Assembly (NCBI GenBank): GCA_951406725.2
Contig: OX597827.1
Coordinates: forward strand, 4,216,001-4,280,000
Direction: 5' to 3'
From: Octopus vulgaris
Lineage: Eukaryota
Length of the DNA: 64,000 nucleotides
Shown here: positions 19,446 through 57,298 of the stretch, in pieces
How the letters are laid out: each line of letters opens with the position of its first letter
How positions within the stretch are numbered: the stretch's first letter is position 1
Translations under genes and position numbers: made by a program
Notes under the pieces: generated by a model
What the model saw: only the letters and a program-made list of their open reading frames with translations
Told to the model about the DNA's origin: nothing
Database searches by the model: none

Positions 19446-22400
19446 CTGAAAATATTTGATTCAATTATTTCTCAATAACAGAGAAGCTGAAAAATTAATC
19501 TTCAAAACATACCTGGAAGGGTCTCATAGTGAACTGTGTTTCTTTCTGTGGATCCATGACCACTGTTAGTTGGAGAAGATATTGCTAACATTTCATTGAA
19601 GTGGTCGGAGGTCATTAGCATACGCTGCTGTTCTTCCTTACGAGAACCAGCTGTCACAGCTGCCTCTTGAACACTTATCTGTTAGAACCGATATATTGAA
19701 ACATATAATTCAATATAAGAGTTGGTAATAATAGAATATAATGAACCAAACAGCTTTGTGCTACTTGTAATAAGAACTACAGACAATTTTAAATGTAATA
19801 TATATATATAGGTAGGATACAAAGCAATTGGTTCACAGAAATAAGAATTTATTTTAAAAAAAACAAAAAAAACACAGCTTTACTAAAGAAGGATATTTTC
19901 ATTAATTTTACCTTGTTTTACTTTTAATAGCAATTATTTCTAAAAGATATAATTCTTTTAATAAATCAATTTTTTGAGATAAATTTTTAAAAATTAATAT
20001 ATTTTAAAATATAAATTTAATGCACACTCTCACACACACTTATAAATATTATATATTATAATTACTATGGTACTGAAACGGTACTAACAGAATGAGTCGA
20101 CTGTTTAGGACAAAATGTAATGTTCCTGGTCTGAATGATGGCATTTTTGTCTTATGAATTCATTACCTACAAAAGAGGGCAGTAGATGGGAAGTAAGCCA
20201 TTGATTACTAAGTAAAATATATTATTGGAAGCTAAATGCTAAGAAATGGTTTCAAGCCCTGAACAAATATCATCTAATACAGTAATTGTCCAGAAAGTCT
20301 TGGATTATCTCCTGTTCATACTAGATTAACTTTGCCAAATTTCTGTAATTTCATTTCTGTTAAATTTCCAACTTATAAATGAGAAAAGTGGCTGATATAA
20401 TTGTTAGTCAATAAAAGTGAAATGAAAGAAGAATGTTGATAAGGATTTTCAGCCAGTTTCACTTAATTATCCCCCACTGATTCCCATCAATGACAGTAAA
20501 GCTGTAACAAATGAATTGTGCAATTTATATAAAATAGTACATGTTGAATGTGAAAAAATGTTTAGATTTTCTAACAAAGCAGTTTTTCTGAAATGTTAAG
20601 GAAATACTAAAGAAAACTAGAATAAAAGAGATATTTACCTGGTGTGTAACATCTTGGTTATGCAGCCCAGATGAAGATCCTTTCCAACTTTGACCTGGCT
20701 TGTAACCAGATTGAACAGTCCGAGAGATTCTTGTTGAATTGTGATCAGAAATCATGGTTACTGGGGTATTATACTGAGATGACATTGATTCAGAGATATA
20801 TCCTGATGGTCTCCTTTCTCCAACAAAATCATTATTTGTGCTGACACCATAACCATATTTTGCATCTCTCTGGTTTTTCCTGTGGACAACACATACTATC
20901 ACTGAAACTACAATGGCCACAGAAACTATCACTGCTGCTACCACAATTATAATCATCAAGTTAATATGAATTCTGTTGTCTGATTCCGTGTCTTCAGCTG
21001 TGTACATTCTGGCTGTTGTATTGCTAACAGTCAGTGTCAAAGACAGTGTAGTGGTTGCTGTTAAAACTGGAGTGCCACTGTCTTTGACAATGAATTTCAA
21101 ATCATATGATCCAGCATCATTTTGGTACACTGTACGAGAGAAAGACAAAACTCCTGTGTAAGGGTTAACTGTAAATAACTGTTTGTCATTGCCTCCAAGT
21201 ATTTCATATCTCAGAAAAGCATTAGCATGACTGTCTCTATCAGAAGCTCTCAGAACTGTGATTTCACTTTTTGTCTGCGGATGGTAGTGGACATCTAAAC
21301 TAAATGGACTCACGCTAGGAAATGTGAAATAGGGTGCATTGTCATTTTTGTCCATGATTTCAACAACTACATTTGCAGTGTTGTTAAGGGAGGGAGTTCC
21401 ATTGTCTTTCACTAAAGCCTTAAAATGGTATGTATCTTGTTTTTCATGATCCAAAGATTGAGCTGTTGTAATAAATCCAAAATTGGAAATCTTAAATGGA
21501 AGAACATAACCATGTTCATCAAACAAAGAATACGATAGTTGTCCTCCCAAGACCTAAATCAGGATCTGTAGCATTGATAAACCCAACAGGAAAATTGGGT
21601 TCTTCATTTTCATAAGTTAAGAATTTAAATGTGCTTTTTGTAAAGTATGGTTGTACATCATTGACATCCATCACTTCAATAGAAAATTTTCTCTCTGTCT
21701 TTAAGGATGGAAATCCCTTATCTTCACAGACAATACTTAAGTCCATGTGACTTTCTAATTCCCTGTTAACAAGACTTTTGATAACGACTTTATATTTATT
21801 TTTCCCCAGACTTTGTAGCATAAACTTGTCATGATTTAGAATACAATCAACCTCTCCATTGTGGCCACTGTCATTATCAACGACCTTCACATAAGCAATG
21901 AAACTACCAACTTTCACTCCTTCTGATATGGAAACCACATTTCCATCCGATTTAGAAACAAATTTCACATCAATCCTTGGAGCATTGTTCTGTTGGTTTA
22001 AAACATTAATAAGAACAATTGCTGTAGAACTCAATGGTGGACTACCATGATCTGTGGCATCAATGAAAAGTTTATAGGTTTGTCTCTTTTCAAAAGGAAA
22101 AATTTTGTGGGGTAAAATTCTGCCACTTTTGGGATCTAGTTCAAAATATGACTTGACGGAATCTGGTGTTTTGGAATTAAAACTGTAAGAAACTTTGCCA
22201 TTTTGACCAACATCTTTATCTTCTGCTAACACAATAGCTACAGGCTGTACTCTTCTATCTTTCTTGTTTATCGAAACATTGTAGATGTTCTGTGTAAAGA
22301 TAGGCCTACTATCATTCTCATCTGTAACAGTTACTCGTACTTTTAAAATACTTTGTTTAGGTGGTGAGCCACCATCCCTTGCAATAACCTCCAAAAGGTA

Positions 22401-23018
22401 AAAGTCTTTTACTTCTCTATCAAGCCCCTGCTTCAGAATTATTTCATTTTTCGATGTACCTATCACACTCTTTGACATGGACAGTTTAAAAGGGTCATTT
22501 GTATTCTTCAGTACATAAGTTATCTGTGAATTCAACACACTCACATCTTTATCAATAGCATTTGGTATTGATTTTGTGGTTCCTTTCCCATCAGTCTCAT
22601 AAAACTGAAGATCCACTTGATGGTGTGAAAATTCAGGTTTGTTATCATTAACATCATCAATAATTACTTTTATTTCAATTATTTTCAAAAAGTATTCTTC
22701 TTGTCTCACAGCAATTTCAACCATTCTGAAGCACTCGGTATTATATTTACAGAGAGATTCAGCGTCTAAATTCATTGCAGTGCATAGTTTTCCTGTCTTG
22801 GAGACATTGAACAGCTGTACGTCACCGTTTTGACTTTCATGCAGTTGGCTATACGTAATAACACCATTATCTTGAGGTGGAACACTGTCCAATAAATGTC
22901 GCTCGTATGAGATGTCGCCAACAATAGTTCCTGGTCTTTTGCCTTCCTTCACGTGGTAAGTCAAATCAACACTTTCACACATGACAGTCACAATCAATAA
23001 TATATATACTTGTAACAT
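19432..23018 (-). CDS. PCDH: Protocadherin (cephalopod type: signal peptide, EC1-EC6, TM, cytoplasmic tail); 3 coding exons, about 852 aa once a 1-bp insertion at 21546-21548 is removed
   Basis: ORFs 21519-23039 and 20525-21550 carry cadherin motifs (DVNDNKPEF, LDREVKDFY, DGGSPP, DENDSRPIF, DVNDVQPYF, ATDPDLG, LDHEKQDTY, DKNDNAPYF, SDRDS) and a TM helix LMIIIVVAAVIVSVAIVVSVIVCVV. GT/AG junctions keep the frame across exons. The symbol is family-level only. Confidence 0.93.
19513..19678 (-). CDS. PCDH: Protocadherin cytoplasmic exon (ISVQEAAVTAGSRKEEQQRMLMTSDHFNEMLAISSPTNSGHGSTERNTVHYETLP-G)
   Basis: Acceptor ttctaacAG| followed by 166 bp open in the phase-0 frame, then donor CCAG|GTATGT. It contains NSGHG, resembling the DSGHG-type motif of protocadherin cytoplasmic tails. 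Confidence 0.82.
20639..21547 (-). CDS. PCDH: Protocadherin large exon, 3' part: rest of EC5, EC6, TM and proximal cytoplasmic region
   Basis: The frame GGQLSYSL...DVTHQ ends at a phase-0 donor CAG|GTAAAT (exon end 20639). The ORF-track tail VNISF... is intron read-through. Confidence 0.9.
21546..23018 (-). CDS. PCDH: Protocadherin large exon, 5' part: signal peptide, EC1-EC4 and start of EC5
   Basis: ATG at 23018 (MLQVYILLIVTVMCES/VDLTYHVKEG). It follows a polypyrimidine acceptor tttctctttcAG (AG at 23058-23057; exon starts 23056). The track start at 23039 is a TTG, not an ATG. Confidence 0.92.
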
Positions 23019-23981
23019 GTTTTTGGCTTCAAGATACAAGAAATGTAAAAGGAAATCTGAAAGAGAAAAAATAGAGAAAAATTAAAAAAGAAAGAGAGAG
23101 AGAGAGAGAGAAAACGTCGAGTCTATGATATTTTGTCAATACAAAAGCAATATTTCTCTCTTTAGAAATAACTTTATTTGCTAGCTTCAGGAAAAATGTT
23201 TCTAGAATCTAATTGAACAAACTACATATATTGGGACAAAACACTCAATAACTCTTATCCCCTCCCTTATACGAACATTTACGTTTGCAGAGGCATTACT
23301 GAGACATTCTCTGAATTTATGTAATTTTCAAGAAAACTTATCTAATTTTCAATAAAGCATTAAACACACACACATACATGCATACACACACATACACATA
23401 TGCATGAAGCTTGCACATACACTTCTTTTATTACATAACTATTCATGGAGTGTTGAAGTACAGAGAGCACAACATGTATTCATTTTATTTTACTTACTAC
23501 AATGTTTCTTTCTGGGGTTTTTCACAATATTTAAAACCACATCCCTGTTAATTATTTAGAATAACATCCCTGTTTCAAGAAATAAATCTTCTGGAAAGAA
23601 CATCAGTCTATCTAAGGTAACACCCCACACCTATTTTTAGTGTCATAAAGGAAGAAGGGTAACACATATGGGATTTTTTCAGGGGCTCTGAGACTAGCGG
23701 GATTAAGAAAAGTAAGAAATTATCCTTTGACTAGAGACTTACTCCAAGTGCTCATTACAGAACAGATTTCTCTAAAGGTTATCAAGGACCAGGTGGTAGT
23801 GTTAAATGGGGCAATGAATTAAGACTGGCACCCAAGAATAGGGATGGCCCCTCACAAGAACATCCACATAGTTTCTTTCTAAAAATTTAACTCCCAATGC
23901 TTTCATAGGATTGAAAGCAAAAATTCATAGTTGTGAAGCAAACTTCCTAACTCTACAACCAAGCCTATACCCAGGTCAAGT

Positions 23982-50400: not shown

Positions 50401-50459
<59 letters not shown>

Positions 50460-50670
50460 TTTAGCAGAAGCAACAGAGTGACTCAGGGACTGAAAGTTTT
50501 ATGTGTTGGCACTAATCAAACTCGTTTGTTTCTGTTAGTCCATTTTTCCTGTTTGCATCACCATTGATTCTAAAGTTTGGGCCTACTAGTTTTGGTCAAC
50601 ATAAAACGTACATTTACGTTATACCACTGGTATTTGAGTACTCTTTTTTCCACCTTGTTTCACATTTATG

Positions 50671-50875
<205 letters not shown>

Positions 50876-50960
50876 ATCCAAACAAGAAAGCACAAAAAAA
50901 CGCGATGATGTGGAACAAATATAGTATTATTGGACGCTCAGGAAAGAAGGAAAGAAGGGG

Positions 50961-50995
50961 GTTTAACGTTTCGAGCAGAGCTCTTCGTCGGAAAC
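50961..50995 (-). ncRNA. Minimal type-I hammerhead-like motif in a Penelope-type repeat fragment (50871-51060)
   Basis: Minus strand GTTT-CCGACGA-A-GAGC(TCT)GCTC-GAAACGT-T-AAAC, with palindromic ACGT stem III. Confidence 0.55.
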
Positions 50996-51197
50996 ATAGG
51001 AGAAGGGAAGACAGAGGAAAAAAAATCGCCAACGGTACACACGAGGTCACATTTTGAAATATATATATATTCCATTATATATATATTTTGTTTTTTTATC
51101 TAGTTTCCAATTGCATATATACATACATATATACATATGTGTGTGTGTATACACTTTAGCAATGAAGAATGGTGACATTGACTCTAAAGTTTGGCCG

Positions 51198-56542: not shown

Positions 56543-56919
56543 CACTACCGTCAGAAATTAATTAGCACCCTTGATTTGCTCTTCACTCAAGGTATGTGCT
56601 GTCACCTAGTGGCCATATCTCGAACTATTGCTTTGTTGTGAGTTCACTGTTGCGCAGAACGATGACGTAACTTTGTTTGCAGAGCAGTTTGAGAGTCTAC
56701 AGCCTTATGATGTTGACATAGCAGTGCAACAACTTGGAGTGCGGATGCAGACAAATCTTCCTTTGTTTAATAGATATAGGTAGCGCCTCGCAAGGACCGA
56801 AATCACACCATACTAAGTTTTCTCATCGCGTAAGACGTTTTGAACAGCTCATAGGTTAATTGATTTAACCTATTTAATGTAGAAATTTGAGAAGTGCTAA
56901 TTAATTTCTGACGCAAGTG
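56543..56919. mobile_element. Tc1/mariner-type MITE, 377 bp, in (TA)n
   Basis: 26-bp TIRs CACTACCGTCAGAAATTAATTAGCAC / GTGCTAATTAATTTCTGACGCAAGTG (2 mismatches), flanked by TA. Confidence 0.85.
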
Positions 56920-57009
56920 TATATATATATATATATACCGGAGTAAACACATAAATGTGAAACAAGGTGGAAAAAAAGAGTACTCAAATACCAGGGGTAG
57001 AGTAATATG

Positions 57010-57262
57010 CTTTATTTAAAAGCAGCAGAAATTCAACAAAACCTGTTACTCTGAGTTTCCCGTTGCCGTTCATTGGACAGTTTTTAAAACCTGTTACTCT
57101 GAGTTTCCCGTTGCCGTTCATCAGACAGTTTTTGTTAACAAAAACTGTCTGATGAACGGGAACGTGAAACTCAGAGTAACAGGTTTTAAAAACTGTCCAA
57201 TGAATGGGAACGTGAAACTCAGAGTAACAGGTTTTGTTGAATCTCTGCTGCTTTTAAATAAA

Positions 57263-57263
<1 letters not shown>
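57010..57263. repeat. 254-bp near-perfect palindrome; each arm contains a 48-bp tandem duplication
   Basis: Centre GTT|AAC at 57136/57137; the arms match out to CTTTATTTAAAAGCAGCAG / CTGCTGCTTTTAAATAAAG. Confidence 0.95.
57141..57187 (+). ncRNA. Minimal type-I hammerhead ribozyme motif (first of a tandem pair; mirror copies on the minus strand)
   Basis: Stem I CTGT(57145-48)/ACAG(57179-82); core CTGATGA(57149-55); stem II ACG-GGAA-CGT; GAAA(57166-69); palindromic stem III ACTC-A-GAGT; GTA cleavage triplet ending at 57178. Confidence 0.72.

Positions 57264-57295
<32 letters not shown>

Positions 57296-57298
<3 letters not shown>

What the first reader, a model, noticed from the sequence alone, without database searches (positions are those of the whole stretch)
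57010..57263. Palindromic cassette with tandem minimal hammerhead-ribozyme motifs on both strands
Seen: a 254-bp near-perfect palindrome (centre 57136/7), each arm holding two 48-bp units. The inner plus-strand unit has every type-I hammerhead element: stem I CTGT/ACAG, CUGAUGA, a 3-bp stem II with GNRA loop, GAAA and a GUA site at 57178. Its stem III (ACTC-A-GAGT) has only a 1-nt loop. Known: minimal type-I hammerheads with palindromic stem III occur in Penelope-like elements and cleave as dimers in tandem repeats. Inference: the adjacent unit, whose own core is broken (CCAATGA), could supply the stem III partner. Transcripts from either strand could then self-cleave, or alternatively fold into a 127-bp dsRNA hairpin (an ADAR/Dicer substrate) that blocks the ribozyme. 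It looks like a small non-autonomous retrozyme/Penelope-derived element. Its flank (56940-56995) recurs inverted at 50627-50672, and both sit in (TA)n. Activity is not shown.
Basis: partly seen in the sequence, partly recalled or inferred. Interest (0 to 1): 0.78.

Follow-up and report, generated by a model that had tools for sequence, protein, structure and literature searches.

The report
Head-to-head truncated Penelope-like retrotransposon ends
The palindrome and its hammerhead motifs are real, but they are two back-to-back copies of the tail end of a very common Penelope-like jumping gene, likely a dead by-product of one insertion rather than a self-cleaving RNA device.

Summary
The palindrome is real: 127-bp arms, 6 mismatches, 48-nt units. 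Both arms are the 3' end of a 3.4-kb Penelope-like retrotransposon, traced to copies with a 727-aa open frame and Hydra-clade motifs. About 7,000 exact motif matches exist genome-wide; 221 loci have the same gap-free centre. In 73 of 79 inverted pairs only one arm carries the tail, the published Penelope pattern. It is not a retrozyme: the tandem junction occurs only here. In the older subfamilies this copy belongs to, 86% of 3,495 matches have a U4C core (CCGAYGA). CUGA (7.6%) and CCAA (6.0%) are mirror-image CpG decay products, so this locus's canonical core is likely decay. Any read-through RNA makes the antisense arm first, and the hairpin beats the ribozyme fold by about 123 kcal/mol. Cleavage and expression were not shown. 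Of residual interest: U4C cores spread to thousands of copies, then the youngest subfamily regained U4; and the arms here are an unexplained subfamily mosaic. The scan noted such insertions before in other genomes.

The parts
56920..56937 (.). (TA)n target microsatellite, left side
56938..57009 (-). 72-nt Penelope-type 'tail', on the long arm only. In tandem copies it lies between the hammerhead end module and the start of the open frame.
   Evidence: (L159 positions 406-477, frame starts at 493)
57010..57037 (-). 3'-terminal segment of the long arm, with AATAAA (57016-57011)
57038..57085 (-). Outer hammerhead unit, long arm: broken core CCAAUGA, B-type stem II, predicted cis-dimer cut site 57047
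57086..57133 (-). Inner hammerhead unit, long arm: core CUGAUGA, B-type stem II (2 bp, GCAA loop)
57134..57139 (.). Self-complementary GTTAAC join of the two 5'-truncated arms. It comes from the parent's sequence just upstream of stem I.
57140..57187 (+). Inner hammerhead unit, short arm: core 57149-57155, stem II 57156-57165, GAAA 57166-57169, palindromic stem III 57169-57177, H17 57178
57188..57235 (+). Outer hammerhead unit, short arm: broken core CCAAUGA, predicted cis-dimer cut site 57226. Its tandem junction is unique to this locus.
57236..57263 (+). 3'-terminal segment of the short arm, with AATAAA (57257-57262), ending at the family's tail-less end
57264..57296 (.). (TA)n target microsatellite, right side
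50622..50671 (+). Separate tail-only fragment of the same family (different subfamily allele), next to its own (TA)n. Not part of the 57-kb insertion.

Best explanation
The feature is a head-to-head pair of 5'-truncated 3' ends of an abundant Penelope-like retrotransposon with Hydra-clade motifs, inserted in (TA)n, and is likely a dead by-product of one insertion. Shown: both arms are the terminal module of a 3.4-kb element with one RT-plus-endonuclease frame; one arm carries a 72-nt tail; the same arrangement recurs at hundreds of loci. Inferred mechanism: the element's protein nicked both strands of (TA)n and reverse-transcribed uncleaved RNA from two start sites 72 nt apart. Both copies stopped just upstream of the hammerhead and were joined through the self-complementary GTTAAC; fold-back self-priming would give the same product. 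A one-off duplication made the 48-nt tandem before the arms were copied or equalised. Later CpG deamination likely turned the subfamily core CCGAYGA into CUGAUGA in the inner units and CCAAUGA in the outer units. If a host transcript reads through, it is predicted to fold into a 127-bp hairpin and not to self-cleave.
For: Walking upstream from a longer copy reached the coding region in 22 of 30 loci, and 24 of 30 carry the hammerhead downstream. L159 is pLTR-tail-727-aa open frame-3'UTR-hammerhead-(TA)n, and window arms match it at 87-96%. The protein has RWK, DKT, YRDDG, CxxC and CxH, as described for Hydra. Published Hydra hammerheads share the architecture; Hydra-2_aMil has the same stem I, core, actc-N-gagt and cleavage base. 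221 loci have a gap-free palindromic centre. 73 of 79 inverted pairs have exactly one tail; 4 have two and 2 have none. This matches the published inverted truncated copy plus tail on one side and the two RT start sites. Of 3,495 A/B-type matches, 266 are CTGA and 211 CCAA. The hairpin is favoured by 123 kcal/mol.
Against: The arms here are a mosaic that one template does not explain. The left arm has B-type stem II in both units inside A-type flanks, seen in 0 of 38 other arms with the same downstream flank, and 0 of 79 other pairs differ at that loop site. Both inner units share CTGA and both outer units CCAA, which independent decay would rarely give, so conversion between arms or inheritance from the source must be added. 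CTGA slightly exceeds CCAA (p = 0.013), and the youngest subfamily has CTGA throughout (first 100 of 3,567 listed), so inheritance from a transitional source is possible. The tail is 72 nt rather than the usual 30-40, and the element is 3.4 kb rather than under 3 kb. No phylogeny with reference Hydra proteins was run. No reads specific to this locus were seen.
Confidence: 0.9

Rival explanations
1. A non-autonomous retrozyme-like or MITE-like element: the whole palindrome, or the 48-nt unit as a circular RNA, is the unit that spreads.
For: Tandem hammerhead units are the hallmark of non-LTR retrozymes. 221 loci share one of two gap-free centres. Three other fetched loci have complete tandem units.
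Against: The junction is unique in the genome, and other tandems have different spacings: 46, 52, 53 and 58 nt. The working retrozyme definition needs two consecutive complete motifs, and each arm here has one. Centres vary continuously up to full-length elements. The shared centre is simply the parent's own self-complementary hexamer.
Confidence: 0.04
2. Same origin, but the locus now works as an active cis-dimer ribozyme from a transcript that starts at the centre, cutting at 57226 or 57047.
For: In an isolated arm the two stem III palindromes pair in the lowest-energy fold. The full dimer fold has probability about 0.001 (+ arm) or 0.06 (- arm), against below 1e-6 for a monomer. The inner cores are canonical.
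Against: The parent's upstream sequence is missing, and any read-through RNA makes the antisense arm first (from the geometry). Minimal PLE hammerheads cleave weakly in vitro, and the anole one needed the element's protein. Stem II is only 2-3 bp.
Confidence: 0.04
3. The locus is partly an assembly or polishing artefact: the insertion is real, but the symmetric tandem or the allele mosaic was written by the assembler.
For: The 2 x 2 allele pattern is unique among 80 pairs. Thousands of near-identical copies could mislead polishing. could not isolate locus-specific sequence.
Against: A pure fold-back chimera would give identical arms. Here 4 of the 6 differences are real subfamily alleles, the two outer flanks are different sequence, and the one-sided tail follows the family rule.
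Confidence: 0.1

Closest known systems
Hydra clade of C-terminal-endonuclease Penelope-like elements (Craig et al. 2021, PMC8557442)
   Same: Single frame with RT then endonuclease; RWK, DKT, CxCX5C-type linker, CxxC and CxH; (TA)n targets; 3' hammerhead with actc-N-gagt stem III and an extra base on each side of stem II.
   Different: 3.4 kb with a 1.1-kb 3' UTR. 2-bp stem II, shorter than any Hydra entry in the supplement part seen. U4C core in the older subfamilies, whereas all Hydra entries listed there have ctga. The hammerhead differs from Hydra-1_oBim, so this is another family.
Penelope insertion unit: inverted 5'-truncated copy plus optional tail (PMC3846280, PMC8557442, PMC11167929)
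   Same: Head-to-head arms, palindrome at the junction, tail on one arm only, AT-rich target.
   Different: The tail is 72 nt rather than 30-40. This locus has an added symmetric 48-nt duplication and a subfamily mosaic.
Minimal PLE hammerheads (Cervera and De la Pena 2014, PMC4209133)
   Same: Type I, palindromic helix III for dimer folding; dual motifs close together on opposite strands were already noted there.
   Different: A10.1 with a variable 11.1 rather than the usual G10.1-C11.1; very short helix II; U4C in most older copies.
Non-LTR retrozymes (bioRxiv 10.64898/2026.07.22.740005; PMC7229834 seen as listing only)
   Same: Tandem units each with a type-I hammerhead motif; PLE ancestry.
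   Different: One-off tandem, only one intact core per arm, inverted arrangement with a PLE tail, no dispersed monomer family.

Membership tests
Penelope-like element (EN+) | Parent with one frame encoding RT plus a GIY-YIG-type endonuclease | tested here: met
   727-aa frame with FDI, YRDDG and GVVYRA...YTG, read by motif. Pfam gave no hit on the C-terminal 392 aa.
Penelope-like element (EN+) | pLTR by partial tandem, inverted truncated copy, tail on one end | tested here: met
   L159 and L164 are partial tandems; 73 of 79 pairs have one tail.
Penelope-like element (EN+) | Hammerhead motif in the pLTR | tested here: met
Hydra clade | RWK and DKT motifs | tested here: met
   RWK at 53, DKT at 129 (definition)
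Hydra clade | [quoted passage not shown] | tested here: met
   CNC-x5-C in L113, L119, L132; the second C is F in young copies; CRLC at 683 and CRH at 711. Absence of CCHH was judged by eye.
Hydra clade | (TA)n insertion preference | tested here: met
Hydra clade | Placement in the Hydra clade by RT phylogeny | not tested
   No reference Hydra proteins were fetched.
Type-I minimal hammerhead | Core CUGANGA...GAAA...NUH with stems I-III | tested here: met
   Met for the two inner units, not for the outer units. No Rfam hammerhead hit.
Type-I minimal hammerhead | Family variation avoids core and stems | tested here: inconclusive
   5 of 6 common variable sites are N7, loop II, 11.1, loop III and a bulge, and the sixth is U4 (266 arms). 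The search patterns fix part of this. No compensatory pairs were seen. The motif is 83-93% identical between subfamilies versus 66-85% upstream, in 4 comparisons.
Type-I minimal hammerhead | Self-cleavage | not testable with these tools
   Needs an assay.
Non-LTR retrozyme | [quoted passage not shown] | tested here: not met
   One intact core per arm; junction unique in the genome.
Non-LTR retrozyme | Circular RNA expressed | not testable with these tools
   Only assembled contigs were available.

The most novel reading that the evidence does not exclude
This genome holds a natural experiment on whether Penelope elements need their ribozyme. Two successive subfamilies made about 3,000 exact-match insertions with an attenuated U4C core, and a second hammerhead-bearing repeat (11,282 matches, 78 of the first 100 U4C) did the same. 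The youngest, intact subfamily then regained U4 through stepwise CpG changes. Damped cleavage would then be tolerated or favoured, because uncleaved RNA is the template. The mosaic arms at this locus would record two different RNAs used in one insertion.
Probability: 0.3. Interest if true: 0.45.

Novelty: new member of a known kind. Interest (0 to 1): 0.16.

Why it matters
The locus itself is ordinary: one of hundreds of hairpin-shaped Penelope leftovers in this genome. It warns that a perfect ribozyme core can arise in a dead copy by CpG decay. The family is more useful than the locus. It offers three dated natural versions of one hammerhead (U4C, U4C, U4) and young intact copies, so the open question of what the hammerhead does in Penelope transposition could be tested directly. 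Hundreds of such hairpins would also be double-stranded RNA sources when read through, which could matter for RNA editing; that was not tested.

Tried and rejected
Rfam at gathering score found nothing in the window. At E up to 10 it gave only generic hairpin matches to microRNA models below threshold and no hammerhead. The GIY-YIG Pfam search found other Penelope-like families; the apparent link in L035 is a nested insertion into that element's (TA)n, not parentage. Two same-strand matches 1.3 kb apart are a local duplication, not pLTRs. Two RNA templates per insertion in general: arm discordance at diagnostic sites in A-type pairs was 7 of 104, against 29 of 728 at neutral sites (p = 0.15), with 1 of 104 and 0 of 108 in B and C; inconclusive. 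Insertion of cleaved 3' products: 5 of 272 arms seemed to start at the cut site, but these are weak alignments or joins through stem I microhomology, and sampling favours intact motifs. Contigs laid at 90% likeness were dominated by other copies and said nothing about this locus or its expression. Locus-specific read support therefore remains open. The bacterial promoter scan is irrelevant here. No host exon was found next to the element among 113 open stretches; the only Pfam hits were cadherin domains 34 kb away. ADAR editing as the source of U4C was considered and dropped, because a T-to-C change in the sense RNA would need the antisense arm to be the template. A recalled paper on PLE hammerhead variants that cleave as dimers (Lünse et al. 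2017) was not held and may already describe U4C.

Full report
Observation. The sequence 57010-57263 is a palindrome centred on 57136/57137 with 6 mismatches in 127 bp, and each arm has two 48-nt units. The inner units have the hammerhead core CUGAUGA...GAAA...GUA, the outer units CCAAUGA. The window lies at G000:C14:4216001-4280000 of a 2.8-Gb genome. Its size, repeat content and a cadherin-repeat exon at 20528-23081 suggest an octopus-like cephalopod; that is inference and was not looked up.

It is a high-copy repeat. A DNA search gave 1,659 candidates, 40 scored, many as inverted pairs. A 30-letter degenerate pattern for the older forms has 3,495 exact matches, and one for the youngest form 3,567, with 0 for the reversed controls. 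221 loci have the same gap-free centre type as this one.

Parent element. Some arms continue upstream into shared sequence. Searching with the 5' end of the longest one gave 30 loci; 22 reach coding sequence and 24 carry the hammerhead about 1.1-1.2 kb downstream of the stop. A protein search scored 105 of 29,495 candidates, and 17 have a 727-aa open frame. Locus L159 reads: hammerhead, AATAAA, tail, 727-aa frame, 3' UTR, hammerhead, AATAAAG, (TA)n; the unit is about 3.4 kb. The window's arms match it at 87-96%, and the window has no coding remnant of it. The protein has RWK, DKT, YRDDG, a CxCX5C-type linker, CxxC and CxH, the features given for the Hydra clade in section 11 of PMC8557442. That paper's supplement (part 2 of 59 and term searches seen) lists Hydra hammerheads of the same build. 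Its one cephalopod Hydra family has a different hammerhead. Pfam does not recognise the C-terminal 392 aa, and no phylogeny was run.

Why a palindrome. In 79 innermost inverted pairs from the fetched loci (window left out; sampling favoured intact motifs and close pairs), 73 have the tail on one arm only, 4 on both and 2 on neither. The 5' ends lie 10 nt to 3.4 kb apart. In loci picked without regard to the centre, 62 of 87 arms end within 15 nt upstream of stem I, where the parent has a self-complementary hexamer. This is the published Penelope pattern: an inverted 5'-truncated copy, a tail at one end, palindromes at the junction and a microsatellite bias (passages of PMC8557442; PMC3846280). 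In vitro, the anole element cuts and extends both target strands, starts reverse transcription at two sites that bound the tail, and uses uncleaved RNA (PMC11167929, parts 1-2 of 4). Priming from both strands and joining at GTTAAC is my inference; self-priming, proposed in PMC3846280, fits too.

The ribozyme motif. In 266 arms, six of 42 positions vary in at least 20%: U4, N7, the second base of the GNRA loop, 11.1, the centre of stem III and a stem I bulge. Five are structure-neutral, although the search patterns fix part of this. Three subfamilies emerge: A (CCGACGA), B (CCGATGA) and C (CTGATGA). Arm-to-arm differences at neutral sites are 29 of 728, 21 of 728 and 1 of 756, so C is the youngest; all 14 loci from the protein search other than the query's own are C. 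Among the 3,495 A/B matches, 266 are CTGA and 211 CCAA, leaving about 86% CCGA. These two are the mirror products of CpG deamination. The window copy has A-type flanks, so its CUGAUGA is likely decay, just as its CCAAUGA is; inheritance from a transitional source is not excluded. U4C is reported to lower activity considerably in vitro while allowing viroid infectivity (passage of PMC3088659). A full-text search for hammerhead plus U4C returned only that paper, but one relevant recalled paper was not held, and supplements I did not see may list such variants.

Could it cut? A monomer fold is negligible (below 1e-6). A cis dimer using the inner core has probability about 0.001 on the + arm and 0.06 on the - arm in isolation, and it would cut in the outer unit (57226 or 57047). 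In the full palindrome it costs 123 kcal/mol. Because the arms are joined 5' to 5', a read-through transcript from either side makes the antisense arm first. Minimal PLE hammerheads cleave weakly even as dimers (PMC4209133, parts 1-2 of 4). Expression and raw-read support were not obtained: the listed runs are contigs, and those laid were dominated by other copies.

Retrozyme? The tandem junction occurs twice in the genome, both times here. Other tandems have different spacings, and each arm has one intact core, short of the working definition in bioRxiv 10.64898/2026.07.22.740005 (part 1 of 5). Not met.

Unexplained. The four units form a 2 x 2 mosaic: core state follows inner versus outer, and stem II type follows left versus right. 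The left arm's B-type stem II in A-type flanks has no parallel in 38 comparable arms or 79 pairs. Patchy conversion within the hairpin, two template RNAs and assembly polishing all remain possible.

Verdict. An ordinary, likely dead insertion of a known kind. Earlier scan notes describe the same kind of thing in other genomes; none covered this genome. The family-level U4C history is the only part worth following up.

Noticed in passing
window 50872-51045, - strand (core at 50991): 3' end of a second hammerhead-bearing repeat in (TA)n, also with a U4C core and a palindromic ACGT stem III. 11,282 exact pattern matches, 78 of the first 100 U4C. Two of 30 loci are inverted pairs. Coding parent not traced.
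   Followed up: partly
window 50455-50530, - strand: Decayed 3' end of a third hammerhead-like family. Better copies in L016 and L033 show a U3-A8-type or near-canonical core.
   Followed up: partly
window 20528-23081, - strand: Large cadherin-repeat exon, protocadherin-like, split over two overlapping frames at 21522-21553, so either a frameshifted copy or an assembly error.
   Followed up: no
L037 (G000:C16:20837296-20840559) and relatives: A young Penelope-like family with 781-aa open frames and a GIY-YIG domain. Its 3' end has a hammerhead-like motif with the U3-A8 core variant and a palindromic ACATGT.
   Followed up: partly
L159 and subfamily C genome-wide: Very young subfamily: arms differ at 1 of 756 neutral sites, and 17 of 105 scored copies have the full 727-aa frame, so it is likely still active. 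The second cysteine of the linker is phenylalanine in these copies.
   Followed up: partly
L003, L004, L005, L007: Other one-off tandem duplications of the hammerhead unit; the downstream unit nearly always restarts at the A-run before stem I, suggesting a strong stop or RNA 5' end there.
   Followed up: partly
window 56545-56915: The left flank of the insertion is itself a multi-copy repeat, with very high contig depth; not identified.
   Followed up: no
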